Shown here one piece after another: positions 27,681 through 64,000 of a stretch of 64,000 bases of DNA. Position numbers and translations under genes: made by a program. The stretch is from Naegleria gruberi (lineage: Eukaryota). The notes beneath the pieces are model-generated. The model searched no databases. It saw only the letters and a program-made list of their open reading frames with translations, and was not told the origin of the DNA. How positions within the stretch are numbered: position 1 is the first letter of the stretch; each line of letters opens with the position of its first letter. The stretch lies in assembly GCA_000004985.1 (NCBI GenBank), contig GG738889.1; one strand, written 5' to 3'.

Positions 27681-29563
27681 GATTAGTTGTTGGTTGAGTA
27701 CTGACGTTTTTTTGATATGATGAAATTGACTTGAAATAGTCCTTACTTTGAGAATCTGCCAGGCGCAAAATCCAACTCTATAGACGTTAGACAAAGTATT
27801 ATTTGGGATTCGTATGGAAAATGTTCTTTCAACACTTTTCTCTTTTCGTTTCCTAATCCTTTAGAATAACAAGCTGTTGGCAAGGAAAGTTCTTTTTGAG
27901 TAGGTGGTCAAACCCGTACGTTGAAAACCTTTCAATTTTTGATTTTTCTCAATCTGTCAAAGAGATACTAGTCTCCTTTGGTTTTCTTATCTTGCAACAA
28001 CTGTTGAGAAAAATTAATGTCGTGTTGATGAAAAATCACCGCCCAGAAATGTTGTCGTTTTTTTGTTGTGAAGATTCCTCTAACACACGCTGTCAGCACC
28101 TATCGGCAACTATCACGAACAAATTAAAATATTATAATTCAAACCTGAGCAGTGCCGGTGTTTAACACCATCCTTGCCAAAGTCCTTAAAGCCTTTTACT
28201 AAAAAGCCTGCATACAAAAAATTTGCTTTCCTTACTCGAACACTCGTTGGGCATCATCAGTGATTTCGCTCCTTTTTTTTTTAAAGTTGGACATGACGAA
28301 GTTGGTGAGCGGGAAAGTGTTTCTGTTTGAGAAAAAGATGCGGTGCATCTATTTTACAAATGTCATCAACACTTGGACATATTGGTATGATGAAGTCAGT
28401 TATTCTTATTAGTGAGTGTTTTTCACACTTTCAACATATTGAGATGATTTCTTGTATTCTGAGAAATGAAACATTTACATGAAATTGTTGGGAGTGGAGA
28501 AAGGTCAGAAGTCAAAATAGGTTTTGAATCATTTGAATCATTCCCTGAGAGAGTCACATTCCTTACCAGCCTTATTTCTTCTTCGACAATAAAATTCCTT
28601 GATCATATCCTTATCAAACTCTGATTCGTAAATATTCACATCTGATAATAATGTCAATTTCTTATCCAAATTGATTTTCCAAGAAATAGACAAGCTGAAA
28701 CTGTATGAAAAAGCAGCAGAAACTACTCCATAAAACTGAAAACCCTGTTTTGGGCAAGAAATAATTAATTCTGATGGAATAATTAAAGATAAAATACAAT
28801 TATCAAAAATTGAGAAATGTAAGGCATTATTGGTTCGTAACGTGTGATATTTGAGATTTCTACTCACACGATTATTGCATGATCCATGAAATAATATTAA
28901 ATCTCCATGCTTCCCAGCACTCGGGTCAAGGTAATAAATTACTCTCAAATAAAACATGATCACATCCAAATTCTAGGAATATTCTGATCACCTCATTGGT
29001 AACAGTAGTCATTGATTGAAATAATAAGCTTGTTCACTAGAAGCCAGTGTCTAATCTCCGAAGAAGAAGAGAAGACTGAGTAGTGATTGCCCTCCATCAT
29101 TGTCCGTTACATTAATACAACTTGAAAAAAAATAGAAATGATTTGTGCTCCTGCATCATCTCTCTCAATGCTGAACTTATCTTCACATTAATGGAATTTA
29201 CTAATATTAGTTAGTTTCCGAATACTTATTAAAAAGTCTAGAAGTGTGTTCTTCCTATTTCATGCATGAAACCTCATAATCCTTCAATTCTATCACTACC
29301 CGATATCAAGAAAGCTTCTGATGAGCAGTGATGGAACATATTCATCATCTGATCAAGTTTTGGCAATTCAACATTTCAAAACAGTAGAGAGAGGTTCAAT
29401 GAAATTACGTTTCCATCCATTCTCCTACCATGTCCAGTAATATCATTGGCCATTACTCGGAAGACATCAAACATTGTAATTTTAAAATGTGAGAGTGTCC
29501 AATGAAACTCTCAGATTGTACAATGAACCACAAAAACAACAAGAAAAAAGGTTTCATCATCAT

Positions 29564-32500: not shown

Positions 32501-34915
32501 TATTATACTGTTACATTGGTTGGTTTCTTCCTATTGTCAAGCTTTGCCTATCTGATATTTATGCTTGTTGAAATGACTTCAATGAAGAGAATAATGAAAC
32601 TCTATGAGAAGCAATTGAGCAAAGATGTTATTGGAAAGATCTATCATACCTTAGATAAGAAGACAACAGAAGTTGCTGATTCTCAATCTAAAGGTATTTC
32701 TCTTAATAGAATCAAACCAAGTGTCATACTTATTGGCTTGATTTTACTTATCATTCTAGTTACAGTAACCTGTTTGGTTTTATTATTTGTTGAAAGTTAT
32801 GAAAATTCAATTACATCATCACAGGTGATGGCAAGTGTAAGATTGACAGTTCAAGCAGCTGCTATTTTGCAAAGATTATCGTTTGCAGTTGGAGAAGTAG
32901 CTACATACTTTGTTGCTAGTGAGACTTCCAATACCAAATCACCTCTAGCCAGTTCTTTCCCTAGAAAGGTAACCTTTGGAGATCCAAGTTTATATGGAAT
33001 AGATATTGCAAGTTTACAAGCATTTTTAGTGGCACGTATAAACACAAGACTTCCTCAATTGAGTAGTATGTGGTCAAAATTAATTTATGGAGATGCAGCA
33101 TCTGGAAGAGAAGCTATTCTTGGTAAATTTGATGATGTTGATCAAGTAATTGTGACTGGAATTACTAATTGCACAGATTATATGGCCAAAAACAATATTA
33201 CATATGGCCTTGAAACTAGTTATCAGTATTGTGTTGGATTTGAAGAATTATTTGGTAATTATTTGACAACTGTTGCTCAGCTCGTTACAGATTCAAAGAA
33301 ACAGTATGCACTTCAACAAGCTGCCCTTAGCACTACAACTCTTCTTCCAACGGATGATTTACAATTGAGACATAACAATGCTATGAGAATGGCTTTATCC
33401 TTAACAAGCAAATTTGTGAAATTTATTCAAGAATTTGTGGATGCAACCTCTAGTGCTTCCTACATTATTGCAATCATTAGTACAATTATCAGCTACTTGC
33501 TATGTACAGTCTTCTTCTTTTTCCTTCAGAGTACTTATCAATCTTATGATGGTCAATTACACACTTTGAGAATAATGGCTCACTACATTCCAGTTGATGT
33601 TCTTGATAGAAATGAACAATTGAAGAACTTTATTCTATACAATACTACCAAGACAGAAAAGAAGAAGAAATCTCTGCTCTCTAAGGAAGGCTTTGTTGGA
33701 GGTTCCTCTCTTGAAGATTTGAAGAATATTTTCAATTCCAACATTGAGGGAACCACAATTTGTAATAGCAAGTTTGAAATTGAATTTTTCAATGCAGCTG
33801 CCCTCAAAATGTTTGGTATGCAATCAATTGATGTGTTGGGAGTTTCTATGGGAAATTTGATTGAGCCAACACAAAAAGATGAGCTCATTAATTGTATGGA
33901 TCATTTAATGAAGAAAAAGACAGGTGAAAATAACCTAAAGAAGGATGAAATTCAAACTAATGATCAATGCGAAGTTTTAGAATTAGACTGCATCAGAAGA
34001 AATCAAACAAAATTCCCATGCAAAATAACTTTAATTGCTGTTAAGGTTAGTGATGGAATAGGTCAAAAGCCAATCCTAATCGTCAGTCTTAAAGATTTAA
34101 CATCTGAAAAGAAACAAAATGCACTATTGAGTGAAGAGAAACAAAAATCAGACAATTTACTGAAAAACATATTACCAATGAGTGTTGCTTCGAGATTAAA
34201 GAGTGGACACACTTTCATTGCTGAAAAGTTGGATGATATCACTTGTTTCTTCTCAGATATGGTTGGATTTACTGCAATCAGTAGTGGACTTCAAGCAACT
34301 GACCTTGTGATGATGTTAAACTCTATTGTTAATGGATTTGATTTACTAACAGAGAAGTATGATTTGGAGAAGATCAAAACTATTGGAGATGCATACTTTT
34401 GTGTAGGAGGACTTCCAGGTGCAGCAACAAGTGATCATCCAGAACGAGTTCTCAAATTTGCTATTGAAACATTTGGTGTCATTAACGATTTCAATGCCAA
34501 TAATGCTGAAAGGAAATCGGTGACTGATAATCAAGAAGAATATCAACCAACTGAAGAACAGTCATCGCCTATCAAGGCAAAGATCAATATTCGAGTTGGA
34601 ATTAACACAGGAGCAGTTGTGGCAGGTGTTATTGGAATGAAAAAGTTTGCCTACGACTTGTGGGGTGATACAATCAATACTGCATCTCGTATGGAATCAA
34701 CATCAAAGAATGGAAGAATTCAAATTTCACGATCAACCTATGAAAGAGTTTTCGATTTGGGTTATGAATTTGAGGAAAGAGAAGTAGATGTGAAAGGAAA
34801 AGGAATTGTCAAGACTTATCTATTGAATGATAAGCATCATAGATATCTCAAAAACAATCCACTAATGTATTCAGCACAGAAGAGTGCTTCTTTGTTATTC
34901 ACTTCCCAACAATAA
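29564..34915 (+). CDS. Polytopic sensor-type class III nucleotidyl (probably adenylyl) cyclase, about 1783 aa. Order: N-terminal ~8-TM domain, cytoplasmic helical region, two TM helices bracketing a ~260-aa N-glycosylation-rich extracellular domain, more TM helices, PAS domain, coiled coil, C-terminal cyclase catalytic domain.
   Basis: One uninterrupted ORF. The track start at 29489 is GTG; the first in-frame ATG is 29564 (MSTNPY). Hydrophobic helices are at aa ~120-440 and again FVFTSTLLYGLLCFSFITASLVLSVYY, LLIYYTVTLVGFFLLSSFAYLIFMLV, VILIGLILLIILVTVTCLVLLFV and YIIAIISTIISYLLCTVFFFFL. PAS-like segment: GTTICNSKFEIEFFNAAALKMFGMQSIDVLGVSMGNLIEP. Catalytic core: FSDMVGFT...LEKIKTIGDAYFCVGGLP...YDLWGDTINTASRME. 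It has both metal-binding Asp residues, plus Lys (EKIKTIGD) and Asp (YDLWG) at the purine-specifying positions. Confidence 0.8.
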   Translation: MSTNPYLLPTSSTSMFSLGEVASSSQNVLAEQSSSHYSMGATGNEYNPSKAGTMSHTGSESIKSADTLSTTSEGGIRGQTKLLITTTLVSLQDSSPKKGWRCYVSYLLVFIYMFWCQVFVPTLGNYGWGEYGTYVLIHVLNFPNTFLVHLIPFYGYLAITIATILFVLTMAVLYIVGVRLATKPNKHFNKFKVLVYYLSFFVKTFSLPIVYILVGLLDCNSIAYDVDGDPIPSLRRYSSQSCTDDLNIIMMIISVISLLILLPVYFFSESITANSNPHNRTPLMVESSFPTSIIGVISLIQLIIGQLIPSNYMYISAALQLLLSVIATIIAGYSLPCFRIIDNSLYFGMNLAKVGASIGSVVASSLNTANILNTSDPTLGWSLMTLGLMILFFVIGVAILEVFQRIQLKRARSFILNWVQQDETAINSDPISPLILIEKNAMNIYGDAEDAKLLGLLRHMFKCSILEARDAKGTSYTNSDLSSAFVKGAASHNSFNDLKLLIYSSILLETKWNESNNTVFSLNLLKRAMKQHPNGLEQITIRERIKQVENFSQTNFKNLTNFELSSQLDLLEKNQNILLTLHRNFWKELASEKINYDSVEKINRAIHSLTIDCRTTLQNLMYNHKNNKTIYRLYANFIESFEFDSDLAQQYYNEANSIEEEEMKRKRRMSTFSNNGKRGGNRVVPVMNEYKFGNAEAVEDQDLDEMESAFDNPKVKKEQVFKTAISNQRSNRFVFTSTLLYGLLCFSFITASLVLSVYYSKTSKNNIPYLQQVCAVSVAPFSVFRNVRAGQNWMNFYMLFENVWPAINPESNTKTRSKSSYVTSHKQRMLDDLAYYDTLVSTAQSKIFDSDSYIDYSENVYPFAYPNEDKQFNYNGALTIRNISVQEITNNMIKYTKKFYADVPDTYLLASEAINITYAKKKLNLDLAANSTYFNPLANYNFMVLYSNIERASNAYDAFCGKYLDRSTSTINDTINLLIYYTVTLVGFFLLSSFAYLIFMLVEMTSMKRIMKLYEKQLSKDVIGKIYHTLDKKTTEVADSQSKGISLNRIKPSVILIGLILLIILVTVTCLVLLFVESYENSITSSQVMASVRLTVQAAAILQRLSFAVGEVATYFVASETSNTKSPLASSFPRKVTFGDPSLYGIDIASLQAFLVARINTRLPQLSSMWSKLIYGDAASGREAILGKFDDVDQVIVTGITNCTDYMAKNNITYGLETSYQYCVGFEELFGNYLTTVAQLVTDSKKQYALQQAALSTTTLLPTDDLQLRHNNAMRMALSLTSKFVKFIQEFVDATSSASYIIAIISTIISYLLCTVFFFFLQSTYQSYDGQLHTLRIMAHYIPVDVLDRNEQLKNFILYNTTKTEKKKKSLLSKEGFVGGSSLEDLKNIFNSNIEGTTICNSKFEIEFFNAAALKMFGMQSIDVLGVSMGNLIEPTQKDELINCMDHLMKKKTGENNLKKDEIQTNDQCEVLELDCIRRNQTKFPCKITLIAVKVSDGIGQKPILIVSLKDLTSEKKQNALLSEEKQKSDNLLKNILPMSVASRLKSGHTFIAEKLDDITCFFSDMVGFTAISSGLQATDLVMMLNSIVNGFDLLTEKYDLEKIKTIGDAYFCVGGLPGAATSDHPERVLKFAIETFGVINDFNANNAERKSVTDNQEEYQPTEEQSSPIKAKINIRVGINTGAVVAGVIGMKKFAYDLWGDTINTASRMESTSKNGRIQISRSTYERVFDLGYEFEEREVDVKGKGIVKTYLLNDKHHRYLKNNPLMYSAQKSASLLFTSQQ

Positions 34916-36708: not shown

Positions 36709-36780
36709 TCCCGTGTAGTCCAATGGCTAGGATACCTGGCTTTCACCCAGGAGGTCCGGGTTCAATTCCCGGCATGGGAG
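36709..36780 (+). tRNA. tRNA-Glu (anticodon TTC), 72 nt.
   Basis: TCCCGTGTAGTCCAATGGCTAGGATACCTGGCTTTCACCCAGGAGGTCCGGGTTCAATTCCCGGCATGGGAG folds as a cloverleaf. Acceptor TCCCGTG/CATGGGA plus discriminator G. Anticodon stem CCTGG/CCAGG with loop CTTTCAC. T-arm CCGGG-TTCAATT-CCCGG. A T-rich tract (TTTTAACTTTTTC) follows as a Pol III terminator. Confidence 0.9.
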
Positions 36781-44036: not shown

Positions 44037-44386
44037 TGTTTTATTGTTATTTTTTTAAATGTTTAAACTATTCGAAAGGCAAATTTAATTAATGTCAAGC
44101 AACCTAAAGAGTATGATGAAATTGGTAAGTCAACTTTACAAAAAGTGAAATTCATGGCTGCTAGTATGCTATTTTTGATCTAATTTGTGTGCAATTACTA
44201 TAAATATTCACAATTTTTGTAATCTCAAATCTAAGAATGGAAAGGTTAAGCCACCACTACGGCAAAGAGACCAATCTGTTTCTAATGTCAGAATAAGTTG
44301 GAATAGGATTAGTCTGTTTAATGAAAATTGTTCCTCCAACTTGATGCTTTGATTTTGGTTATGATTCTCTTTGAAGATGAAAAAAA

Positions 44387-44504
44387 GACTACAGCACCAC
44401 AGGTTCCCAAGTTGTCTCCAACCTCAGTACTGATGTGGCTCGACGATGCTTAACTTCTCAAATCGGACGGGATGAGGTGCATTCATCGTGATATGGCCGT
44501 AGCC
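44387..44504 (-). rRNA. 5S ribosomal RNA gene, 118 nt, dispersed single copy.
   Basis: Minus-strand sequence GGCTACGGCCATATCACGATGAATGCACCTCATCCCGTCCGATTTGAGAAGTTAAGCATCGTCGAGCCACATCAGTACTGAGGTTGGAGACAACTTGGGAACCTGTGGTGCTGTAGTC carries the conserved 5S blocks (CGGCCATA, CCCGTCCGAT, GAAGTTAAGC, AGTACT, TGGGAA, GGTGCTGTA). Helix I pairs GGCTACGGC with GTGCTGTAGTC. A T7 run follows as a Pol III terminator. Confidence 0.85.
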
Positions 44505-45725
44505 ATTCATCACCCCGAAATTTGAAATATTAATATCAAATTACATTAATGTCTTGAAGTAGTTCATGAATAAGATGTTTGTCATCAGAATTGATTGAAG
44601 TATTCGCATCCACTTCACAATGTTATTTACAAGCAAATATAGTAGCAATATCAATTCAACAAAAGTTTCCAAACATTCAACCTTTACCTTCCCAATTCCG
44701 CTTTTTTACACAAAATTAAATTCCCATTGTCTCTATATCATGCCATCTTCCAACACGTGTAACACTTTTGAGTGTCATCAAGAAATGCTCTCGATAATCG
44801 ATTTTTCACATAAAGGATGAATAATTTAGAGGGGATAAATTTTTCTTTCTGTAAAAAATTTCAAATTTTTTTGCCAGAAAACTCGGCAAAATTTTCAAAA
44901 GAAAAAACAACAAAAATTTTCTCTCTTGAAAATTCTACTTCTTCTGTGATGATTTTCAACAGTAATTCTGCATGATGGTAAAAACCATTTAATACACAGC
45001 ATGATAGGATGGAAAGGAAGTGATAGGAATTGGATTTATTGGATTTTATGATAAATTGCGGATTTTGGAAGGCAAAGATTACCTTTGTAAAAACTTTTAT
45101 GGAAATGATGAAGTGAAACCTTCATGCTTGTTGGTAAATAGTATTTACATAACAATGGAGAGTATGCGAACGTCTCAATTCAACATAATTCTTATCAAAA
45201 TATTAATTTTAATATTTTCATCATATTCAACATGAAATACAACAAGAACAACATCATTGCCATGTTATTTATCATCAATAATATCACCTGGGAATGTTTT
45301 GTTAATTCACATCTACCATTGGTGATGACAGAGAAGTTGAAAGTAAAATCGAAAAAGTTGGAAATACTTTTGACAAACCTGCTAGTAAAATGCAAAGCGA
45401 GCAAAATTCACCACCTATGAGCATCATCAAGAACACTCCCTATCTGTTTTTCAAGTTTTTGTGCTAGATTGGGAGGTCAAATTTTTACATCCTCTCCCAA
45501 CATTAATTATTCTTCATCTACTTGTTCAATCTTCTTCAGCACAACAATAAATTCATAACAGCAATATTACCAATTACTAATCTTCATCTTGTCCCTTCCC
45601 TCCAAACATTCATCAAAATATTCATCAATTCCTATCCGCACCCAACATCTCCAACATCTCCTTCACAATCGCACCTCCTCTCCTACCATATCGCAATAAG
45701 CGCATTGAAAGTTAAAAAAAAATCC

Positions 45726-46281
45726 NNNNNNNNNNNNNNNNNNNNNNNNNNNNNNNNNNNNNNNNNNNNNNNNNNNNNNNNNNNNNNNNNNNNNNNNNNN
45801 NNNNNNNNNNNNNNNNNNNNNNNNNNNNNNNNNNNNNNNNNNNNNNNNNNNNNNNNNNNNNNNNNNNNNNNNNNNNNNNNNNNNNNNNNNNNNNNNNNNN
45901 NNNNNNNNNNNNNNNNNNNNNNNNNNNNNNNNNNNNNNNNNNNNNNNNNNNNNNNNNNNNNNNNNNNNNNNNNNNNNNNNNNNNNNNNNNNNNNNNNNNN
46001 NNNNNNNNNNNNNNNNNNNNNNNNNNNNNNNNNNNNNNNNNNNNNNNNNNNNNNNNNNNNNNNNNNNNNNNNNNNNNNNNNNNNNNNNNNNNNNNNNNNN
46101 NNNNNNNNNNNNNNNNNNNNNNNNNNNNNNNNNNNNNNNNNNNNNNNNNNNNNNNNNNNNNNNNNNNNNNNNNNNNNNNNNNNNNNNNNNNNNNNNNNNN
46201 NNNNNNNNNNNNNNNNNNNNNNNNNNNNNNNNNNNNNNNNNNNNNNNNNNNNNNNNNNNNNNNNNNNNNNNNNNNNNNNNN
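45726..46281. other. Assembly gap (556 N). It hides the 5' end of the following ORF.
   Basis: Run of N characters. Confidence 1.
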
Positions 46282-47738
46282 AACCTTGGATTGATGAAAC
46301 CATTTCAACAAAAAGACTCACTGGTACTCTCAATGGTGATGGAGTTTCACCATTTAAAAAGAGCTTGAATAATTTCTATAATTTCATTGTACAGTTCAAT
46401 GAAATGAGTCCTTCTGATCGAAAGAAATCTACCAATAATTTTCTATGGGCCATTTTACCAAGGAAACCTGATAAGATAGATATTGAAATTGGACTCAAAG
46501 TAATAATGAATGATCTGAATTGTCTAAATTCAAATCAAAAAAACCTTAATTTGGAAATGATAATTGAACGAGTAATTGCTGACCTTCCTGCAAGATCAGA
46601 GATTTTATTCTTTAAACGCCAAGGATTTTATTTTTGTCACTTGTGTAACACTAAGGGTGAAGATACATCTGGTTCTCACAAAGTTTATCCATTGGAGTTT
46701 CGAACAAGATTAGTAGTATTGAATGGAAAATCAGAACTCATTGAGGTTTTTGAAAAATTCAAATACAGAGAATATCACAATGAGATTTCTCTCATTAACA
46801 ATTTTCCAAACTCAAATCTACCACCCGGAATGGATAATGTTTCTCCAATCCTATTACAACCATTCAATCCTAATCCAACATGTCTCTGTTCATATGATAA
46901 CATGCATTACAATTATGAAGGTATTTTGGTGAAATTTCTCAATTTAATTGATGAACGATATTGGAAAGAATTTGATGTCATTTATTTAAAACAGAAGTTT
47001 CCCTCCTTTTTTCACAAGCACCCAAGATCCATTGCAAAGAATATCAATCACCTGAAATCCATTGAAGTTTACATTCTGTGTCATTATTATCTCGAATTAT
47101 TTGAGGAAATTCCAAGCTATAGTGAAATTCAAGAAATAGTTCAACACATTATTCAATATGTGAGAATTATTGATAAGCTAATGGACTCATTTCAATTAGA
47201 AGATCTTCTATTATTGCAGAAACAGCTAAACTCAGTTCTGTACTTTTTTCAAAAGAAGGATGCTAATTTTTGCTCTCCAAATTTTCACATAGCAGCTGAA
47301 ATGGTAATGAACTGCCGTCTATATGGTCCATTGTGGTGCAATAACGCATTTATTTTTGAGGCAATGAATAACATTCTCTCAAAACCCTTCAAATGTGCCA
47401 ATTCTTTAAGATATTCAATTCTATTCTTTGATATGGTAAATTTGGTACAATTATTGAACTTGAAACCTCCCAATCGTAAACTAGAATGTGTCTGTGGTAA
47501 TTATATAATCAATAGCAAAAGAGATTACTTGCTACACACTCCCTCTAAAGAAATTTATCAAGTCAATTCATTTTCTCCAAATTATTCACAAATTGAGATT
47601 CGACATGCTGTTAATGGCACAACAATCACCGTCTCACAAGACACTATCAAACAAGATTTCATACCAGCAATATGCCAGCAAATTAATGGCTCTTTTCACT
47701 TCAAACCAATTCACAAAATGGCCTTTACATTATATTAA
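46282..47738 (+). mobile_element. 5'-truncated ORF of about 485 aa (start is in the gap). Its C-terminal part resembles the DUF4218/TNP2 core of CACTA/EnSpm/KDZ-type transposases. Possibly a transposase-derived or mobile-element gene.
   Basis: An open frame runs from the gap edge to TAA at 47738. The segment NFHIAAEMVMNCRLYGPLWCNNAFIFEAMNNILSK follows the TNP2-family pattern H-[LI]-x-x-[HE]-[LM]-V-x5-RL-x-GP-[VL]-x3-W-x4-FE-x2-M-x2-[IL]-L-K. The upstream FPSFF and several C-x2-C pairs (CHLCNTKG, CVCGNY) are also present. This is recognition-level only. Confidence 0.4.
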
Positions 47739-47950
47739 ATGTCTTTCCATATTTGGCTTCATCTCTAAAATAAACACTTTCTATTTTTGCAACCAGTTTA
47801 AACTATTTTTCAAAAAAAATACCTCAACATACTAGTAAGTCGTATCAGTTATCAATTATATTACATCATTTCAATTCATTTACAAGACATATCAATTCAA
47901 ATTTTTATTTCACGTTTTTATAAGAAACTCTTGTCAATTTCCTTGTCATC

Positions 47951-48050
47951 TTTGATGGTGTGAAATCTTTTACAATATTAATTCACACGGTGTGAATCTT
48001 TCATAGCATTGAGTTTCACTCAGTGTGAAATGGTTCAAGATGAAAGATTT
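47951..48050. promoter_or_regulatory. Cluster of GTGTGAA-containing palindromes.
   Basis: ggTGTGAAatc, aaTTCACACgGTGTGAAtc (a perfect 7-bp inverted repeat with a 1-nt spacer) and ttTCACTCAGTGTGAAAtgg, all within 100 nt, about 310-410 nt upstream of the P450 ATG. Confidence 0.5.
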
Positions 48051-48117
48051 CCAACTTGTAAGAATTATGAATAGTTCAATAAAATTTCAATTTATCAAAA
48101 ATTAATAATCATTCTGC

Positions 48118-48300
48118 AACGTCATTGGAGACACTTTTTGAGACGTCATTGAGGACGCTTTTTTTGACGTCTTAATGACTCTCAAATTGACACCGTCAAA
48201 ATGACGAAAAAAAACGTCATTTTGACGTCCACAACACCGTCCCAATGACACCTTAACAAGCATAAACAAAGGCGTCATTCATGACTATAAAATCGTCAAA
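48118..48300. promoter_or_regulatory. Dense array of about 12 CRE/TGACG-type half-sites ((A/C/G)CGTCA with ATGAC partners), including near-palindromic TGACGTC. It lies immediately upstream of the P450 gene.
   Basis: Half-sites: caACGTCAttgg, gagACGTCAttgagg, ttTGACGTCttaATGACtc, caCCGTCAaaATGACGaaaaaaaACGTCAttTTGACGTCcac, aCCGTCccaATGACacc, gGCGTCAttcATGACta, aTCGTCAaaacaaGCGTCAat. TGACG is the core of bZIP (ATF/CREB/AP-1-like) sites. Confidence 0.55.
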
Positions 48301-48360
48301 ACAAGCGTCAATAAAAATGAGCGGGGCATTGAAAGTTTAAAAAAAAATTCCCAACTTGAA

Positions 48361-50013
48361 ATGCAAGAAACACAATCACTCGCCGATTACATCAAATCTT
48401 TTGGTACATTTCAATTGATTTTCCTCTCTTTCATTTCTTTGATCATTCTCTACTTGATAATTTATACATGCCGATTTGTGCACTTGTATTTAAAGTATAG
48501 GCACATTCCTGGCTTTGTTTCCTTTCTACCACCCTTCTTGGGATCACTCGTGGCCGGAGAAATGTTTGTTGGTTATGAGTATTCATGTATTTTGAAGGCT
48601 TTTACGAGTAATCCTGATAGTACAATTGTAAAGATTCAAAAAGGATTGGATCTTTATTTTGCTGTGGCTAAGGATCAAGAAATAATCAAGGAATTACTCA
48701 TTAGAAAGTATAAAACTATGGCCAAGAATGAAAAGTTGTTGGAACCATTGGGATTATTTGGACATAATATGTTAACTGCCGATTCAACCAATCCTATTTG
48801 GAAGAAACATAGAGTATTGGCTAATCCAATCTTTTCAAATCATGCTCACTTGAAAAATGTATTCAGAGTCACAATGGAAGAACTTTCCAACATGATTAAA
48901 TATTGGAAAGATAATTATGATTCAGATGCTGAAGGAAATATTAGAAATGTCAATACTACACAAGAACTCAAGTCAATTACACTCACTGTTATTAACAGAG
49001 TTGCTTTTGGTTATGATATTGAGATTTTTAATAAGAGTACAAAACACAGAGATGAAATTCATCAATCGACAACTGACTTGTTGAGTGGAATCATGTACAA
49101 ATTTGTTTTCCCTACATGGTTCTTTGAATATTTACCGTTTGGAATTTTTGGCAAATTCAAGAAGGCAAAGAATAATTTCCGTAAGATTGCCATGGATATG
49201 ATTAGTAAAAAGACAGCTGAAATTCAAAAGAATAATGAAATTATGGAAGATGAAGATTTATTGAGCTTGTTAATGAAGAGTAGTGCTTCTCAAAACTTAT
49301 CAGATGAGGAAAAATTGAGTGATGATGAATTGGTCAGTGCTATGTTTATTATATTCTTTGCTGGATTTGAGACAAGTTCAACCTCTTTGAATTTCATGTT
49401 GAGGCTGTTGGCCATTCATCCAGATGTTCAGGAGAAATTAATTGAAGAAATTGATGCAACAGTAGAGTCAGCCGAATCTATGAAATTTGAAGATCTTACC
49501 GAAAGACTTCCTCTATTGAACTCATTCATTAAGGAGTCATTCAGGGTCAAACCAGCAGTAGGTGCCGTTTCCAGAACTGTTGCCAAGAAGGGAGGAGAAA
49601 CTATTGGAGGAATGCACTTTAATGAGGGAGACCAAATTGTTTTCAACATTATGGTTCATCACAAACTCTCCCACAATAATGCTATGGATACTTTCAAATT
49701 TGACAGATTTTATCAACCATCAGATAAGCAAGACGATTCTTCATCAGAAAGCTCAGATAAGGGAACAATGGGAAATTTAACACTCGAGTTTGCAAAGGAT
49801 GATTTGGCCTCCTTCTCACTTGGTCCAAGAGATTGTCTCGGAAGAAGAATGGCCTTGATAGAAGTTAAACAGATTCTCGTCTATTTATTGAAAAAGTACA
49901 GAATTACAGTGCCAGAACATTTGAAGGAGCAACAGGCTAAAATTAAGGAAACTTACATCATGACAAGATGTACCTTTGAACCTTTTATTCTTAATTTTGA
50001 AAAGAGATGTTAA
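48361..50013 (+). CDS. Cytochrome P450, intronless, 550 aa, with an N-terminal membrane anchor.
   Basis: ATG at 48361. Marks: TM anchor LIFLSFISLIILYLIIYTC, I-helix FFAGFETSS, K-helix ESFR, heme loop FSLGPRDCLGRRMALIEVK. It ends in TAA. Confidence 0.85.
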   Translation: MQETQSLADYIKSFGTFQLIFLSFISLIILYLIIYTCRFVHLYLKYRHIPGFVSFLPPFLGSLVAGEMFVGYEYSCILKAFTSNPDSTIVKIQKGLDLYFAVAKDQEIIKELLIRKYKTMAKNEKLLEPLGLFGHNMLTADSTNPIWKKHRVLANPIFSNHAHLKNVFRVTMEELSNMIKYWKDNYDSDAEGNIRNVNTTQELKSITLTVINRVAFGYDIEIFNKSTKHRDEIHQSTTDLLSGIMYKFVFPTWFFEYLPFGIFGKFKKAKNNFRKIAMDMISKKTAEIQKNNEIMEDEDLLSLLMKSSASQNLSDEEKLSDDELVSAMFIIFFAGFETSSTSLNFMLRLLAIHPDVQEKLIEEIDATVESAESMKFEDLTERLPLLNSFIKESFRVKPAVGAVSRTVAKKGGETIGGMHFNEGDQIVFNIMVHHKLSHNNAMDTFKFDRFYQPSDKQDDSSSESSDKGTMGNLTLEFAKDDLASFSLGPRDCLGRRMALIEVKQILVYLLKKYRITVPEHLKEQQAKIKETYIMTRCTFEPFILNFEKRC

Positions 50014-50098
50014 AATTTTCTAATTTATTTACATGATTTGATTATTATTAAATCGTCGTTAGGAGAATAGGATTTCAAAATTGGATATTTTGTTAACT

Positions 50099-50881
50099 TT
50101 AAACATGTTGCTCTTGATTAAGATTTGGATAATGAACTTGATTAATGGAATAAGCAACTGGATTTTGAGCAACATATTGTTGAGGAGTGACAATAGTTGG
50201 AACGGAGGCATCATCTTCTTCCTCTCTCAATTGTTGATGAGCTTCACTCTTTTGTAATGAAATAGAATAACCCTTCTTCTTCAAAATGAGAACTACAATT
50301 CCAGCTCCACAAGCCAAACACAATGAAACACTAGCAACAATACCACCAATAACACCAAGAATTAAACCAATTGGTAATCCTTGTTCTCCAGCTCTATTTT
50401 GAGTTTTGGTCATTTCATTACCATCTTGAATATTGGAATCATCTTGATCCATATCTGGTGATGCTGATGAAGAATCTTGTGGTCTTGGTGGTCTTTGTCC
50501 AGAACGATCTGGTCTTGGTGGACGAGGACCTGGACCTGGTTGTCTTCTGGAATGATCTGGTCTAGGTGGTCTTTGTCCAGATGGTAATGGACGTGGAGGT
50601 CTTTTTCCAGAAGGCATTGGTCTTGGATTTCCTGATTGTTGTGGACCTGGTGGAGGATGTGGTCTTTCACCAGAATGATCAGGTCTTGGTGGTCTTTGTC
50701 CAGAGTGATCTGGTCTTGGAGGTCTTTGTCCTGAACGATCAGGTCTTGGACCAGGTGGTGGATTTGGAGGTCTTTGAGAAATATTGTTATCTTGAGCGAG
50801 TGTGGACATTGTCAAGGCAATGAACATGATTAACATGACAGCGAGGACTGCCAATGATTTCTTTGAGTGTTGGTGATGCAT
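50099..50881 (-). CDS. Type-I membrane protein with a signal peptide, about 9 tandem Pro-rich decapeptide repeats (consensus SGQRPPRPDH), one TM helix and a short cytoplasmic tail. 260 aa.
   Basis: ATG at 50881. Signal peptide-like LAVLAVMLIMFIALTMSTLA. Repeats include RPDRSGQRPPRPDHSGQRPPRPDHSGERPHPPPGP...SGKRPPRPLPSGQRPPRPDHS...RPDRSGQRPPRP. TM helix: LPIGLILGVIGGIVASVSLCLACGAGIVVLIL. The 30-nt nucleotide periodicity is visible (ggtcttggtggtctttgtccag...). Confidence 0.65.
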   Translation of the reverse strand: MHHQHSKKSLAVLAVMLIMFIALTMSTLAQDNNISQRPPNPPPGPRPDRSGQRPPRPDHSGQRPPRPDHSGERPHPPPGPQQSGNPRPMPSGKRPPRPLPSGQRPPRPDHSRRQPGPGPRPPRPDRSGQRPPRPQDSSSASPDMDQDDSNIQDGNEMTKTQNRAGEQGLPIGLILGVIGGIVASVSLCLACGAGIVVLILKKKGYSISLQKSEAHQQLREEEDDASVPTIVTPQQYVAQNPVAYSINQVHYPNLNQEQHV

Positions 50882-55930: not shown

Positions 55931-56741
55931 ATGGCAACAAGCAAAACTGTTGAAGATATTGATGAAGCATATCGTTCTGAACCTTGGTGGTAAGTTGATG
56001 CACTTTCGAATAGTTTTTGACATGGTCTTGTTTCAACATGTTTACAGGTATGATGTGAGAGGATTTTTCATATTAACATTTGCCTACCGATCAACACTTC
56101 CCAGACAAATTCGAATGTTTGGTTTAAACATGGGAGAAAATCACTTGGAAGTAGCCTGTGGCACTGGAACTCTTTTAGAGTATATTTTAAATTGGCGTAG
56201 ACGAAAGCAACTACCTCACATCCAAATAACATGTGTAGATTATGCAGAGAAGATGTTACAAGGTGCCAAACATCGTTTCGCCAATCAATCTGACATGAAA
56301 TTCCTCAAAGCAGATGCAGCAAACATGTCAGACTTCTCAGATGAACTATTTGACACTCTCAACATTGCAAATTCCATTCATTGTCTTCCACAAGTTGTTG
56401 AATCTTTCCAGGAAATGTTTCGTGTCTTAAAATCAGGTGGAATTCTATGTGGAAATGTATTGTTACATGCACGTGGTTGGTTTCCATTCAAACAAATTGC
56501 CAATTCCATAAATAGATGGGGAGAAAGGAGAGGAATTCTGGTGACACCCTATTCAGAGGATGGCATTGTGGAAATTGTAAAGCAAGTTGGATTTGTAGTT
56601 TTGGTGAGGGAAGTTCATGGAAATTGTTTGGAATTGACTTTACAAAAACCGAAAAATGATGCGAATGTTGTTGCTCAGAAACAACAAGTGAGTTCTGTGA
56701 GTTCTGTATCCATTGAAGTTGAAATAGGGCAAATAAATTAA
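55931..56741 (+). CDS. Class I SAM-dependent methyltransferase. Two exons, 55931..55989 and 56048..56741, about 250 aa.
   Basis: Motif I: LEVACGTGTLLEYIL. Acidic post-I residue in VDYAEKM. A 58-nt intron (55990..56047; GTAAGT...TTTTGAC...TTTACAG) joins MATSKTVEDIDEAYRSEPW-W-YDVRGFF... in frame. The track ORF start at 55950 is not ATG-anchored in this model. Confidence 0.55.
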
Positions 56742-57711: not shown

Positions 57712-58485
57712 ATGAATCATCATCACGCCGAGTCCTATATGAATGGTTGGATGGTTTCTCGTTGGTCATCCTCTAACAACAGTGACAGTAACAAAAGTTG
57801 CCTTTTCACACATAGTGAACCATCCTCGCCAAGGGAAGTTTACATGTCTTGCTTTTCGCACAATGCCTTTGCTATGAAACCACAACAAGGATTTCATTCA
57901 AATGCAAACGTTGGTTCAGCATCATGTTCAGCATCATGTGAGGATTATTTCTATAATGCTAAGGACAAGCTCAATTATGATAACGGCTGCAGTAGTAGCA
58001 GTAGGAAAGATTTTCATGAAACTGTTTCAGTAACATCTGTGGAAGGACATTCGACGCTTTCAACTGACATTTCGGACTCTTATTCTACTTTTCTCAAATT
58101 GGATGTGGAAGACTTCATTCAATCATGCATTAGCCAATCACAGAAACATTCTCTTTCTACATGTATTAAACATGCTTCACAACAAACCAAGCCACAACAA
58201 CATTCTAAAAGTCAATTTAAACAAATATATGAAACAAATCCTGTCTTGAATGCTTCCACTCTACAACTAGAAGAAACAATAGCTCTAACAAATCCTCCCT
58301 CACTACCTCTCCCTCCAAAAATTAGTAAGAATTCGTCTTCGAGAAAGACACATTCATCTTCATCATCGAGTCTGGATTCTCTTGTTCCAGAAAGAAGAAA
58401 GAGGAATAAGAGAAGCTATTTACCTGGTGAGAGGAAAATGATCATGTGGAAGTGGAATAAGGCAACAATAAAAGAAGGTCTGTGA
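57712..58485 (+). CDS. Hypothetical Ser-rich protein, 257 aa, with a basic C-terminal patch (PERRKRNKRSY).
   Basis: ATG-initiated ORF (MNHHHAESYMNGW...). No domain recognised. Confidence 0.45.
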   Translation: MNHHHAESYMNGWMVSRWSSSNNSDSNKSCLFTHSEPSSPREVYMSCFSHNAFAMKPQQGFHSNANVGSASCSASCEDYFYNAKDKLNYDNGCSSSSRKDFHETVSVTSVEGHSTLSTDISDSYSTFLKLDVEDFIQSCISQSQKHSLSTCIKHASQQTKPQQHSKSQFKQIYETNPVLNASTLQLEETIALTNPPSLPLPPKISKNSSSRKTHSSSSSSLDSLVPERRKRNKRSYLPGERKMIMWKWNKATIKEGL

Positions 58486-58896: not shown

Positions 58897-59445
58897 ATGT
58901 GGAATACTGATAATGATACAACATACTGTCTTTCTGATAATGAATCTAAAGCCTTAATGGAAAGAATTCAATTTTTTATCACACCAAATGGTGGTGAAGA
59001 CACATTCAACATTAAATTGTCACCAGCCTCTCCTAAATATAATCACACAAGAATGAATCCTGATTCAGCAAGAAATGTAACTTGGAGACAGAATTTATGT
59101 TTTACACTTCCATTTGGTCCAATTTCAGATTTATTCTTCTCTCAGTTAACTCAATCCAAACCATCATCTGTTAAACTTACATCTAAGTATTACTATATGG
59201 AAGGCAAATCCTCTAAAGGTTTGAAACTTGACACAAAAGTGTACGTATGGGATGAAGATAATATGCCAAGTTTAAAATCTGAACATTGGTTTTTGAAAAA
59301 GTGGAATGGGAAGAATGATACGTTTCGAGCTAGATGTATTCAGTTTACTTTAACTTACAGGCCTCAACTCGACATTATTCGTGTCGAATTTAAATATACA
59401 ACTCAAAAGTGGAACAATATTCTACAAGCTTGGCAAGATATGTAA
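58897..59445 (+). CDS. Hypothetical protein, 182 aa. It may extend 5' across the 50-N gap into ORF 58676..58841.
   Basis: ORF MWNTDNDTTYCLSDNESKALMERIQFF... lies directly after the gap. The upstream ORF (…DMDDTLNTMPNEGTIQHWPLTSNQASNFSLPT) runs into the gap. Frame continuity is unknowable. Confidence 0.4.
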   Translation: MWNTDNDTTYCLSDNESKALMERIQFFITPNGGEDTFNIKLSPASPKYNHTRMNPDSARNVTWRQNLCFTLPFGPISDLFFSQLTQSKPSSVKLTSKYYYMEGKSSKGLKLDTKVYVWDEDNMPSLKSEHWFLKKWNGKNDTFRARCIQFTLTYRPQLDIIRVEFKYTTQKWNNILQAWQDM

Positions 59446-59595: not shown

Positions 59596-60063
59596 ATGGT
59601 ACCACCAAGAAGCCGTCCATCAGAATCAATATTAACAAGGCGAACAAGACGTTCCACTTGTGAGGCTTTGGAGGCAAGTTATGTTAGACCAAACAATAAT
59701 GCTTACTTTACGGACCAGTATGAGAAAGTTCCGTATGTAGTTAGGTCTGAAGTAGACACACAAATGTTGAATTGTTGGTTTACTGTTTTCTTTCCTTACT
59801 TGCTTTCTCTGTTTTGTAGTATATACACATTTAACCAATTGTTATTAATGTGGTTGACTAATACAAGACTTGGAAGGTCATTATTGAATCAAGCAATTAA
59901 TTCAGTAGAAGACAAACATCTCAAAAAGCATTCACAATTAGGTTATACAATCAGCAAACGAGCCAAAACAAGGATATCGGTTGTTACAATGGGTTTGGTA
60001 CCTGTCATTATCTCTCTGGTTTGGGATCCGCACATGCTCAGATCTTATAGCTTATCAATGTGA
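59596..60063 (+). CDS. Hypothetical small membrane protein, 155 aa, with two hydrophobic segments.
   Basis: ATG-initiated ORF (MVPPRSRPSESILTRRTRRS...WFTVFFPYLLSLFCSIYTF...VVTMGLVPVIISLVW). It ends 25 nt before the large gap. Confidence 0.4.
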   Translation: MVPPRSRPSESILTRRTRRSTCEALEASYVRPNNNAYFTDQYEKVPYVVRSEVDTQMLNCWFTVFFPYLLSLFCSIYTFNQLLLMWLTNTRLGRSLLNQAINSVEDKHLKKHSQLGYTISKRAKTRISVVTMGLVPVIISLVWDPHMLRSYSLSM

Positions 60064-60088: not shown

Positions 60089-62870
60089 NNNNNNNNNNNN
60101 NNNNNNNNNNNNNNNNNNNNNNNNNNNNNNNNNNNNNNNNNNNNNNNNNNNNNNNNNNNNNNNNNNNNNNNNNNNNNNNNNNNNNNNNNNNNNNNNNNNN
60201 NNNNNNNNNNNNNNNNNNNNNNNNNNNNNNNNNNNNNNNNNNNNNNNNNNNNNNNNNNNNNNNNNNNNNNNNNNNNNNNNNNNNNNNNNNNNNNNNNNNN
60301 NNNNNNNNNNNNNNNNNNNNNNNNNNNNNNNNNNNNNNNNNNNNNNNNNNNNNNNNNNNNNNNNNNNNNNNNNNNNNNNNNNNNNNNNNNNNNNNNNNNN
60401 NNNNNNNNNNNNNNNNNNNNNNNNNNNNNNNNNNNNNNNNNNNNNNNNNNNNNNNNNNNNNNNNNNNNNNNNNNNNNNNNNNNNNNNNNNNNNNNNNNNN
60501 NNNNNNNNNNNNNNNNNNNNNNNNNNNNNNNNNNNNNNNNNNNNNNNNNNNNNNNNNNNNNNNNNNNNNNNNNNNNNNNNNNNNNNNNNNNNNNNNNNNN
60601 NNNNNNNNNNNNNNNNNNNNNNNNNNNNNNNNNNNNNNNNNNNNNNNNNNNNNNNNNNNNNNNNNNNNNNNNNNNNNNNNNNNNNNNNNNNNNNNNNNNN
60701 NNNNNNNNNNNNNNNNNNNNNNNNNNNNNNNNNNNNNNNNNNNNNNNNNNNNNNNNNNNNNNNNNNNNNNNNNNNNNNNNNNNNNNNNNNNNNNNNNNNN
60801 NNNNNNNNNNNNNNNNNNNNNNNNNNNNNNNNNNNNNNNNNNNNNNNNNNNNNNNNNNNNNNNNNNNNNNNNNNNNNNNNNNNNNNNNNNNNNNNNNNNN
60901 NNNNNNNNNNNNNNNNNNNNNNNNNNNNNNNNNNNNNNNNNNNNNNNNNNNNNNNNNNNNNNNNNNNNNNNNNNNNNNNNNNNNNNNNNNNNNNNNNNNN
61001 NNNNNNNNNNNNNNNNNNNNNNNNNNNNNNNNNNNNNNNNNNNNNNNNNNNNNNNNNNNNNNNNNNNNNNNNNNNNNNNNNNNNNNNNNNNNNNNNNNNN
61101 NNNNNNNNNNNNNNNNNNNNNNNNNNNNNNNNNNNNNNNNNNNNNNNNNNNNNNNNNNNNNNNNNNNNNNNNNNNNNNNNNNNNNNNNNNNNNNNNNNNN
61201 NNNNNNNNNNNNNNNNNNNNNNNNNNNNNNNNNNNNNNNNNNNNNNNNNNNNNNNNNNNNNNNNNNNNNNNNNNNNNNNNNNNNNNNNNNNNNNNNNNNN
61301 NNNNNNNNNNNNNNNNNNNNNNNNNNNNNNNNNNNNNNNNNNNNNNNNNNNNNNNNNNNNNNNNNNNNNNNNNNNNNNNNNNNNNNNNNNNNNNNNNNNN
61401 NNNNNNNNNNNNNNNNNNNNNNNNNNNNNNNNNNNNNNNNNNNNNNNNNNNNNNNNNNNNNNNNNNNNNNNNNNNNNNNNNNNNNNNNNNNNNNNNNNNN
61501 NNNNNNNNNNNNNNNNNNNNNNNNNNNNNNNNNNNNNNNNNNNNNNNNNNNNNNNNNNNNNNNNNNNNNNNNNNNNNNNNNNNNNNNNNNNNNNNNNNNN
61601 NNNNNNNNNNNNNNNNNNNNNNNNNNNNNNNNNNNNNNNNNNNNNNNNNNNNNNNNNNNNNNNNNNNNNNNNNNNNNNNNNNNNNNNNNNNNNNNNNNNN
61701 NNNNNNNNNNNNNNNNNNNNNNNNNNNNNNNNNNNNNNNNNNNNNNNNNNNNNNNNNNNNNNNNNNNNNNNNNNNNNNNNNNNNNNNNNNNNNNNNNNNN
61801 NNNNNNNNNNNNNNNNNNNNNNNNNNNNNNNNNNNNNNNNNNNNNNNNNNNNNNNNNNNNNNNNNNNNNNNNNNNNNNNNNNNNNNNNNNNNNNNNNNNN
61901 NNNNNNNNNNNNNNNNNNNNNNNNNNNNNNNNNNNNNNNNNNNNNNNNNNNNNNNNNNNNNNNNNNNNNNNNNNNNNNNNNNNNNNNNNNNNNNNNNNNN
62001 NNNNNNNNNNNNNNNNNNNNNNNNNNNNNNNNNNNNNNNNNNNNNNNNNNNNNNNNNNNNNNNNNNNNNNNNNNNNNNNNNNNNNNNNNNNNNNNNNNNN
62101 NNNNNNNNNNNNNNNNNNNNNNNNNNNNNNNNNNNNNNNNNNNNNNNNNNNNNNNNNNNNNNNNNNNNNNNNNNNNNNNNNNNNNNNNNNNNNNNNNNNN
62201 NNNNNNNNNNNNNNNNNNNNNNNNNNNNNNNNNNNNNNNNNNNNNNNNNNNNNNNNNNNNNNNNNNNNNNNNNNNNNNNNNNNNNNNNNNNNNNNNNNNN
62301 NNNNNNNNNNNNNNNNNNNNNNNNNNNNNNNNNNNNNNNNNNNNNNNNNNNNNNNNNNNNNNNNNNNNNNNNNNNNNNNNNNNNNNNNNNNNNNNNNNNN
62401 NNNNNNNNNNNNNNNNNNNNNNNNNNNNNNNNNNNNNNNNNNNNNNNNNNNNNNNNNNNNNNNNNNNNNNNNNNNNNNNNNNNNNNNNNNNNNNNNNNNN
62501 NNNNNNNNNNNNNNNNNNNNNNNNNNNNNNNNNNNNNNNNNNNNNNNNNNNNNNNNNNNNNNNNNNNNNNNNNNNNNNNNNNNNNNNNNNNNNNNNNNNN
62601 NNNNNNNNNNNNNNNNNNNNNNNNNNNNNNNNNNNNNNNNNNNNNNNNNNNNNNNNNNNNNNNNNNNNNNNNNNNNNNNNNNNNNNNNNNNNNNNNNNNN
62701 NNNNNNNNNNNNNNNNNNNNNNNNNNNNNNNNNNNNNNNNNNNNNNNNNNNNNNNNNNNNNNNNNNNNNNNNNNNNNNNNNNNNNNNNNNNNNNNNNNNN
62801 NNNNNNNNNNNNNNNNNNNNNNNNNNNNNNNNNNNNNNNNNNNNNNNNNNNNNNNNNNNNNNNNNNNNNN
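60089..62870. other. Assembly gap (2782 N) between the last gene and the subtelomere.
   Basis: Run of N characters. Confidence 1.
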
Positions 62871-63566
62871 GATTGAAGTGATGTATTTGATAGAGTTGAT
62901 CTGACCTGTCTTTCTCTAAAGTCAACCATAATATTTCAACATTTACCTTCCCATGGTACCATTTCTGATTTTTATGATATGAAATTGAATTCTACATCAT
63001 TATATATCATCTACATCATGTTGGTAAAGTTTCAATAGGTGGTCCTTTTTCAAGATTTCCACCTTTTCATCATAGTTGACCATATGATGGTTGAGGGAAG
63101 AAATCTTTAAATATGAAAGTTAAAATAAATTTGATATTCGATGTTTACTCATCAAATGGAACATTTTCATGTCAGGATTCAATATGTTTTGATGAGAAAC
63201 TAAAAAGTTATTGTTGACCTCTTGTACTTCACAACTTCCCTTTTCACTTCATACTTTTATACCTACAGACATGAACCTTTGAAATTTCATATGAAAGTGA
63301 TTATAAATGTTGTTAATGATGATATAAACTATATAATCTCATTAAAGGATTTCGAAATTATTATTCTTCCTATGGTTTCATTTATGAAATTTTAATCTGA
63401 CTCTATTTAAAAAGTTAATATTTTATAAATTGAAAAACTAAATATACCACATTGTTCTACTCATCATTAGCTATCGAATGATATAAAATTTAATGATATT
63501 TGAATAAGTTTATAATTTTGGGTTAGGGTTTGAACGTTGGGTTTAGAAGAATTCTATTTTTAGGTT
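62871..63566. other. AT-rich, ORF-free subtelomeric sequence. It ends in a degenerate telomere-like transition (TTGGGTTAGGGTTTGAACGTTGGGTTTAGAAG...TAGGTTTTGGG).
   Basis: No ORF of 60 aa or more. Contains a 10-bp inverted repeat ACTCATCAAA...TTTGATGAGA at 63140-63200. Telomere-like variant units, including a TTAGGG-type unit GGGTTA, start at about 63517. Confidence 0.7.
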
Positions 63567-64000
63567 TTGGGTTTGGGTTTGGGTTTGGGTTTGGGTTTGG
63601 GTTTGGGTTTGGGTTTGGGTTTGGGTTTGGGTTTGGGTTTGGGTTTGGGTTTGGGTTTGGGTTTGGGTTTGGGTTTGGGTTTGGGTTTGGGTTTGGGTTT
63701 GGGTTTGGGTTTGGGTTTGGGTTTGGGTTTGGGTTTGGGTTTGGGTTTGGGTTTGGGTTTGGGTTTGGGTTTGGGTTTGGGTTTGGGTTTGGGTTTGGGT
63801 TTGGGTTTGGGTTTGGGTTTGGGTTTGGGTTTGGGTTTGGGTTTGGGTTTGGGTTTGGGTTTGGGTTTGGGTTTGGGTTTGGGTTTGGGTTTGGGTTTGG
63901 GTTTGGGTTGGGTTTGGGTTTGGGTTTGGGTTTGGGTTTGGGTTTGGGTTTGGGTTTGGGTTTGGGTTTGGGTTTGGGTTTGGGTTTGGGTTTGGGTTGG
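63567..64000 (+). repeat. Telomeric repeat array (TTTGGG)n of about 72 units. The G-rich strand runs 5'->3' toward the window end.
   Basis: Perfect GGGTTT hexamer tandem array from 63567 to the window end. One 5-mer variant (GGGTT) lies at about 63905. It is preceded by a degenerate transition and sits at a scaffold end after the gap. Confidence 0.85.

What the first reader, a model, noticed from the sequence alone, without database searches (positions are those of the whole stretch)
63517..64000. Chromosome end with a non-canonical TTTGGG telomere repeat
The window ends in about 72 perfect GGGTTT hexamers, with the G-rich strand running 5'->3' toward the end. The repeat is hexameric like TTAGGG but has T in place of A, which is not the common fungal/animal unit. 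A TTAGGG-type unit (GGGTTA) and TTTAGG-like variants sit in the ~50-nt transition zone. That is what drift from an ancestral TTAGGG template would look like. Gene space starts within ~3.5 kb of the array (allowing for the 2.8-kb gap), so the subtelomere is very short.
Basis: seen in the sequence. Interest (0 to 1): 0.55.

Follow-up and report, generated by a model that had tools for sequence, protein, structure and literature searches.

The report
Naegleria gruberi TTTGGG telomere, already reported
The window ends in a real chromosome-end repeat, (TTTGGG)n, of the amoeboflagellate Naegleria gruberi, but a 2013 survey of this same genome assembly already proposed that motif as its telomere, so the finding is correct and not new.

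Summary
Window 63566-63998 is a period-6 array of 72.3 TTTGGG units at 99% match. Its only flaws are one TTGGG unit at 63908 and a final TTGG. The G-rich strand runs 5'->3' toward the window end. A 49-nt zone of degenerate same-strand variants (63517-63565) precedes the array.

Two ORFs are 100% identical to Naegleria gruberi proteins on one 348,446-bp scaffold, so the window is from the JGI NEG-M assembly.

Fulneckova et al. 2013 (PMC3622300) screened scaffold ends of that assembly and named TTTGGG as the candidate N. gruberi telomere. They also noted that experimental confirmation was still needed. The main interpretation is therefore supported and already known.

Two side claims are weaker:
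- The single TTAGGG in the transition zone is one substitution away from TTTGGG, so it is not evidence for a former TTAGGG template.
- The "3.5 kb" subtelomere includes a 2,782-N gap of unknown content.

I could not reach other Naegleria chromosome ends, TERT or the telomerase RNA with these tools. The telomerase mechanism is therefore inferred, not shown.

The parts
63566..64000 (+). Telomeric array (TTTGGG)n, about 72 units, G-rich strand 5'->3' toward the end. One TTGGG variant at 63908-63912 and a terminal TTGG.
   Evidence: TRF; sequence; unit parsing.
63517..63565 (+). Telomere-subtelomere transition zone with degenerate same-strand telomere-like units (TTTGGG, TTAGGG, TTGGG, TTTTTAGG) interrupted by non-repeat bases. 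31% G against 4% C.
62871..63516 (.). Unique AT-rich subtelomeric sequence (26% G+C against 34% for the window). It has no ORF of 60 aa or more and no similarity to the rest of the window.
   Evidence: Composition and self-blastn; ORF list.
60089..62870 (.). Scaffold gap of 2,782 N. The terminal contig is linked to the scaffold only across this gap, and its content is unknown.
59596..60063 (+). Last long ORF (155 aa) before the gap. With ORFs 58897-59445 (182 aa) and 57712-58485 (257 aa) it marks the distal edge of probable gene space. None has a Pfam match.
   Evidence: ORFs. ORFs of 150 codons or more: 34 observed against 0-1 in 20 shuffles. No Pfam family.
55950..56741 (+). Last gene with a recognised domain before the end: a class I SAM-dependent methyltransferase, annotated in N. 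gruberi (P0121).
   Evidence: Pfam; 100% identity to 'methyltransferase [Naegleria gruberi]'.

Best explanation
This is the right-hand telomere of a Naegleria gruberi (strain NEG-M, JGI assembly) nuclear chromosome or scaffold. It is a terminal array of the species' telomeric hexamer TTTGGG, at least about 430 bp as assembled, preceded by about 50 nt of degenerate variant repeats and about 650 bp of AT-rich unique subtelomere.

Shown: the array, its polarity, its purity, the organism, and the published assignment of the motif.

Inferred from general telomere biology: the array is made by telomerase copying an RNA template that contains a permutation of CCCAAA (about 1.5 repeats). The G-strand ends in a 3' overhang bound by end-protection proteins. 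The two T-deletion variants (TTGGG at 63908 and the terminal TTGG) are either occasional telomerase slippage or read errors at the end of Sanger reads. The proximal degenerate units are old repeats that have accumulated mutations because telomerase no longer renews them.
For: - Array anatomy: 72.3 units, 99% match, only T and G, G-strand pointing to the end.
- No second tandem TTTGGG or CCCAAA run anywhere else in 63.5 kb.
- Degenerate, same-polarity variants lie only at the proximal border.
- Organism: ORF 22907-24520 is 100% identical to NAEGRDRAFT_80892, and ORF 55950-56741 is 100% identical to an N. gruberi methyltransferase. Both sit on a 348,446-bp contig.
- Fulneckova et al. 2013 (PMC3622300) screened scaffold ends of 143 genomes for position and orientation. 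They list TTTGGG in N. gruberi among the convincing candidate telomeric repeats.
- TTTGGG is a bona fide telomerase product elsewhere, as one of the two Paramecium repeats.
- In environmental assemblies, terminal (TTTGGG) arrays of 6 or more units point outward 25 times and inward 8 times (binomial p = 0.005). The motif therefore does serve as a chromosome cap in nature.
Against: - Terminal position is not demonstrable from the window. The sequence simply stops at 64000, and the last 1,130 bp are joined to the scaffold only through a 2,782-N gap.
- I could not retrieve any other N. gruberi scaffold end. I could not reach a contig end of N. lovaniensis or N. fowleri either.
- TERT and the telomerase RNA were not examined. 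The published assignment is itself in silico, and its authors state that experiments are required.
- TTTGGG also occurs as an ordinary internal microsatellite: 89 of 122 arrays in the metagenome scan were internal.
Confidence: 0.88

Rival explanations
1. The array is an interstitial TTTGGG microsatellite at which the Sanger assembly broke, so it only appears terminal.
For: In the metagenome scan most (TTTGGG) arrays of 6 or more units were internal: 89 of 122, up to 112 bp, in contigs of all G+C contents. The window shows only one flank. The terminal contig is short (1,130 bp) and linked only across a gap. Outward polarity at a single end has a 50% prior.
Against: The array is at least 433 bp and nearly perfect, about four times the longest internal array seen, although those short-read assemblies limit that comparison. 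Degenerate variants of the same polarity lie at the proximal edge only. An assembly-wide survey found the motif convincingly terminal in N. gruberi. No other tandem copy occurs in 63.5 kb.
Confidence: 0.06
2. The terminal contig is foreign, for example a ciliate macronuclear telomere, or is mis-scaffolded onto this Naegleria scaffold.
For: Paramecium telomeres contain TTTGGG. The 646-bp unique flank is AT-richer (26% G+C) than the window (34%), has no ORF, and has no match in the window. Its origin therefore cannot be confirmed from sequence. The link to the scaffold is an N gap.
Against: Paramecium arrays are a mix with TTGGGG, and here none of about 72 units is TTGGGG. The same motif was reported at N. 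gruberi scaffold ends generally. Mis-scaffolding would change which chromosome the telomere belongs to, not what it is.
Confidence: 0.03
3. It is a genuine telomere, but it is maintained by recombination or another telomerase-independent route rather than by telomerase.
For: Nothing specific. TERT and the telomerase RNA were not examined here, so telomerase is an assumption.
Against: A short, strand-asymmetric TnGm unit of very high purity is the signature of RNA-templated synthesis in every lineage studied (established knowledge). Recombination-maintained ends usually carry longer or more heterogeneous units.
Confidence: 0.03

Closest known systems
Candidate telomere repeat TTTGGG of Naegleria gruberi (Fulneckova et al. 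2013, Genome Biol Evol 5:468, PMC3622300)
   Same: Same organism, same assembly, same motif, and the same kind of evidence: position and orientation at scaffold ends.
   Different: Nothing substantive. This window is one instance of what that survey reported. The junction anatomy given here was not found described in the main text read; the supplementary tables were not available.
[quoted passage not shown]
   Same: The TTTGGG hexamer is a known telomerase product, with the G-strand outward.
   Different: In Paramecium, TTTGGG arises by misincorporation or stuttering on a TTGGGG-type template and is interspersed with TTGGGG. Here the array has no TTGGGG unit at all. The organism is a heterolobosean using the standard genetic code, not a ciliate.
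Canonical TTAGGG telomeres (vertebrates, trypanosomatids, many protists; inferred ancestral type)
   Same: Hexamer, GGG block, same polarity and terminal position. TTTGGG differs by one base (A to T).
   Different: No A in the unit. Only one TTAGGG lies in the transition zone, which a single substitution explains.
Tetrahymena TTGGGG and Oxytricha/Euplotes TTTTGGGG telomeres
   Same: Pure TnGm repeats without A.
   Different: Different T:G counts and an unrelated lineage.

Membership tests
Telomerase-type telomeric minisatellite | Short (5-8 nt) tandem T/G-rich unit in a long homogeneous array | tested here: met
   Period 6, 72.3 copies, 99% match; only T and G.
Telomerase-type telomeric minisatellite | G-rich strand runs 5'->3' toward the chromosome end | tested here: met
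   TTTGGG lies on the + strand at the 3' end of the window.
Telomerase-type telomeric minisatellite | Array lies at the physical end of the DNA molecule | tested here: inconclusive
   The array runs to the last base of the window. What follows cannot be seen, and the terminal contig is linked only across a 2,782-N gap. The N. gruberi scaffold could not be retrieved.
Telomerase-type telomeric minisatellite | The same repeat caps the other chromosome ends of the organism | not testable with these tools
   Only this window of N. gruberi is available. Reported in silico by Fulneckova et al. 2013, but the supplementary table is not held.
Telomerase-type telomeric minisatellite | Telomerase (TERT plus an RNA with a complementary template) synthesises the unit | not tested
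The window holds no template-like CCCAAA permutation of 10 nt or more and no Rfam telomerase RNA hit. That is expected for a 64-kb sample.
Telomerase-type telomeric minisatellite | Bal31 sensitivity, terminal restriction fragment smear, 3' overhang | not testable with these tools
   Needs wet-lab work.
Paramecium-type variable telomere (TTGGGG/TTTGGG mix) | TTGGGG and TTTGGG units interspersed in one array | tested here: not met
   No TTGGGG unit among about 72. The variants are TTGGG (once, at 63908) and a terminal TTGG.
Interstitial microsatellite | Unique sequence on both sides of the array | tested here: inconclusive
   Only the proximal flank is visible. Internal TTTGGG arrays do exist in other organisms.

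The most novel reading that the evidence does not exclude
The TTAGGG and TTTAGG-like units at the junction could be true relics of a former TTAGGG-type telomere. Naegleria would then have undergone a comparatively recent one-base change in its telomerase RNA template (A to T in the product). The still-unidentified Naegleria telomerase RNA, with a CCCAAA template, would be a convergent counterpart of ciliate A-less telomeres. Comparing junctions at many chromosome ends and across Naegleria species would make the template switch datable.
Probability: 0.07. Interest if true: 0.4.

Novelty: already known. Interest (0 to 1): 0.15.

Why it matters
The finding confirms that this scaffold of the N. 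gruberi draft reaches a chromosome end. That is useful for anchoring and orienting the scaffold. It also adds a junction sequence to a motif that so far rests only on in silico evidence.

Heterolobosea are a deep excavate lineage with almost no telomere biology. Experimental confirmation of TTTGGG, and discovery of the telomerase RNA template, would fill a gap in the map of telomere evolution. This window does not provide that. The motif assignment was published in 2013, so no new biology is revealed here.

Tried and rejected
1. Ciliate origin. This was my first guess from the motif. I rejected it because long ORFs are intact under the standard code and two proteins are 100% identical to N. 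gruberi proteins.
2. Retrieving the N. gruberi scaffold to prove that the window end is the scaffold end. Four look-ups found no record. The P450 ORF was found only on two short metagenome contigs.
3. Metagenome scan for (TTTGGG)6, hoping for independent Naegleria chromosome ends. It returned 120 loci, and none matches the window. The standard-code AT-rich contigs with outward terminal arrays carry unrelated genes and could not be assigned to a taxon.
4. Reaching chromosome ends of N. lovaniensis or N. fowleri. N. lovaniensis and N. fowleri contigs are retrievable, but the three N. lovaniensis genes tried are internal. The N. fowleri locus stops 4.5 kb short of its contig end. The follow-up homolog search with the distal gene fragment found nothing.
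5. Synteny route through the last domain-bearing gene. The methyltransferase has no Naegleria orthologue among the listed hits.
6. Literature on Naegleria telomeres, telomerase and TERT. Only the 2013 survey is informative. Fritz-Laylin 2010 and Joseph 2021 are not held.
7. Telomerase RNA or template in the window. There is no Rfam hit and only chance-level 8-9-mers.

Full report
**Observation.** The last 435 bases of the window are a tandem hexamer array. Tandem Repeats Finder gives 63566..63998, period 6, 72.3 copies, 99% matches, unit TTTGGG, score 859. Parsing the sequence shows two perfect runs of 57 units (63566-63907) and 14 units (63913-63996). They are separated by a single TTGGG at 63908, and the window ends in TTGG. 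The array contains only T and G, and the G-rich strand runs 5'->3' toward the end of the window. No other run of two or more TTTGGG or CCCAAA units occurs in the remaining 63.5 kb. Immediately upstream, 63517-63565 reads TTTGGG TTAGGG TTTGAACG TTGGG TTTAGAAGAA TTC TA TTTTTAGG T. It is a G-over-C skewed zone (31% G, 4% C) of degenerate telomere-like units in the same polarity.

**Surroundings.**
- Upstream of the transition zone lie 646 bp of unique, AT-rich DNA (62871-63516, 26% G+C against 34% for the window). It has no ORF of 60 aa or more and no similarity to the rest of the window.
- Next comes a 2,782-N scaffold gap (60089-62870).
- Proximal to the gap are ORFs of 155 aa (59596-60063), 182 aa (58897-59445) and 257 aa (57712-58485). 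None has a Pfam match.
- ORFs of 150 codons or more are essentially absent from shuffled sequence (0-1 in 20 shuffles against 34 observed), so these three are probably coding.
However, four fifths of it is a gap whose size is an estimate and whose content is unknown.
- The terminal contig is only 1,130 bp and is joined to the scaffold only across that gap.

**Organism.** Long ORFs are intact under the standard genetic code, which argues against the ciliate origin that the motif first suggests. ORF 22907-24520 is 100% identical over its full 537 aa to NAEGRDRAFT_80892 of Naegleria gruberi. ORF 55950-56741 is 100% identical to an annotated N. gruberi methyltransferase. Both are recorded on a contig of 348,446 bp. 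The window is therefore part of the N. gruberi genome assembly.

**What is already known.** Fulneckova et al. 2013 (PMC3622300) searched 143 genome assemblies for candidate telomeric minisatellites. They judged candidates by position and orientation at scaffold ends. [quoted passage not shown] They also state that experiments are needed to confirm terminal position. My literature searches found no later experimental work on Naegleria telomeres, telomerase or telomerase RNA in the held library. The motif assignment is thus published but still in silico.

**Independent tests I could run.**
- A scan of metagenome contigs for (TTTGGG)6 returned 120 loci. Of 122 arrays, 89 are internal (median 46 bp, maximum 112 bp), 25 are terminal with the G-strand outward, and 8 are terminal with it inward (binomial p = 0.005).
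- This scan shows two things. TTTGGG is used as a chromosome cap by some environmental eukaryotes. The motif alone is not proof, because short internal TTTGGG microsatellites are common.
- None of these loci matches the window, so they say nothing direct about Naegleria.
- Attempts to fetch the N. gruberi scaffold itself failed.
- N. lovaniensis and N. fowleri contigs can be fetched, but the three N. lovaniensis genes I could legitimately look up are internal. The N. fowleri locus stops 4.5 kb from its contig end. The last homolog search, meant to bridge that 4.5 kb, found nothing.

**Mechanism.** A long, pure, strand-asymmetric TnGm hexamer with outward G-strand polarity, bordered proximally by decayed copies, is the standard signature of a telomerase-maintained telomere. 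I infer that an RNA template containing about 1.5 copies of a CCCAAA permutation directs the synthesis. I also infer that the proximal variants are old repeats no longer renewed by the enzyme. The two T-deletion variants may be slippage or end-of-read errors. None of this was tested. The window contains no template-like permutation of 10 nt or more, and Rfam finds only a 5S rRNA and a tRNA. TERT was not examined.

- "Non-canonical" is fair. The unit differs from TTAGGG by one base, and in pure form it is not described for any other organism in the papers read here.
- The nearest precedent is Paramecium, where TTTGGG is interspersed with TTGGGG through misincorporation or stuttering on one template. 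Here no unit is TTGGGG, so the Paramecium-type variable telomere does not apply.
- The suggestion that the junction variants show drift from an ancestral TTAGGG template is not supported. There is one TTAGGG, and it is a single substitution from TTTGGG. TTAGGG is considered ancestral for eukaryotes (citing the 2013 survey), but this junction adds no evidence for it.

**Rivals.**
- Interstitial microsatellite at an assembly break: about 0.06. It is disfavoured by array length, purity, one-sided decay and the published assembly-wide pattern.
- Foreign or mis-scaffolded contig: about 0.03. There is no TTGGGG, and mis-scaffolding would not change what the array is.
- Telomerase-independent maintenance: about 0.03.

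**Verdict.** Interest is low. The remaining open questions are experimental confirmation, genus-wide conservation and the telomerase RNA. They are reasonable, but nothing in this window advances them.

Noticed in passing
window 55950-56741 (+): This class I SAM-dependent methyltransferase is the last domain-bearing gene, about 6.8 kb from the telomere array. Among its best 120 hits, only the N. gruberi protein itself is labelled Naegleria. The few other source-named hits (51-63% identity) are bacterial UbiE-like methyltransferases (Rubrivivax, Acidobacteria), and most hits are unnamed metagenomic sequences. It is a candidate subtelomeric gene acquired from bacteria.
   Followed up: partly
window 45723-48328, compared with L001 and L002: Two contigs from public run ERR1078381 (labelled a metagenome) are 94-99% identical to window 44745-45722. 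They then continue directly into 48329-50392, skipping 2.6 kb that includes the 556-N gap. A direct repeat of about 25 nt (GCATTGAAAGTTTAAAAAAAAATTC) sits at both edges of the skipped segment. This is either a strain indel or duplication, or a scaffolding artefact just upstream of the P450 gene.
   Followed up: partly
L001 and L002 (ERZ929261 / ERR1078381, PRJEB11402): A sample deposited as a metagenome contains DNA 99.3% identical to N. gruberi. It encodes a P450 identical over all 550 aa. A very close Naegleria strain is therefore present in that data set.
   Followed up: no
window 44386-44504 (-) and 36709-36780 (+): A 5S rRNA gene (105 bits) and a tRNA gene lie among protein-coding genes about 19 kb and 27 kb from the chromosome end.
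   Followed up: no
L008, L032, L043, L077, L078, L079 and others (accessions JAESGV01..., VFQO01...): AT-rich (31-38% G+C) environmental contigs end in outward-pointing (TTTGGG)n. L008, L043 and L077 carry long standard-code ORFs right up to the array; L032, L078 and L079 have only shorter ones. These are unidentified organisms, not obviously ciliates, that seem to share the pure TTTGGG cap. L010 (26% G+C) ends in ...GGGTTGGGGT, which looks Paramecium-like.
   Followed up: partly
L052 (Ga0163111_10301227), first ~190 nt; shown as reverse complement: A GC-rich (62%) contig end carries a run of TTAGGG, CTAGGG, GTAGGG and TGAGGG variants. These lead into TTTGGG units and then TCAGGG. It is a mixed-variant telomere-like array in an unknown organism.
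   Followed up: no
window 29489-34915 (+) and 22907-24520 (-): A 1,808-aa ORF combines TPR, PAS and an adenylate/guanylate cyclase catalytic domain. Separately, a protein is built from eight DUF4116 repeats, a family that recurs in Naegleria species.
   Followed up: no
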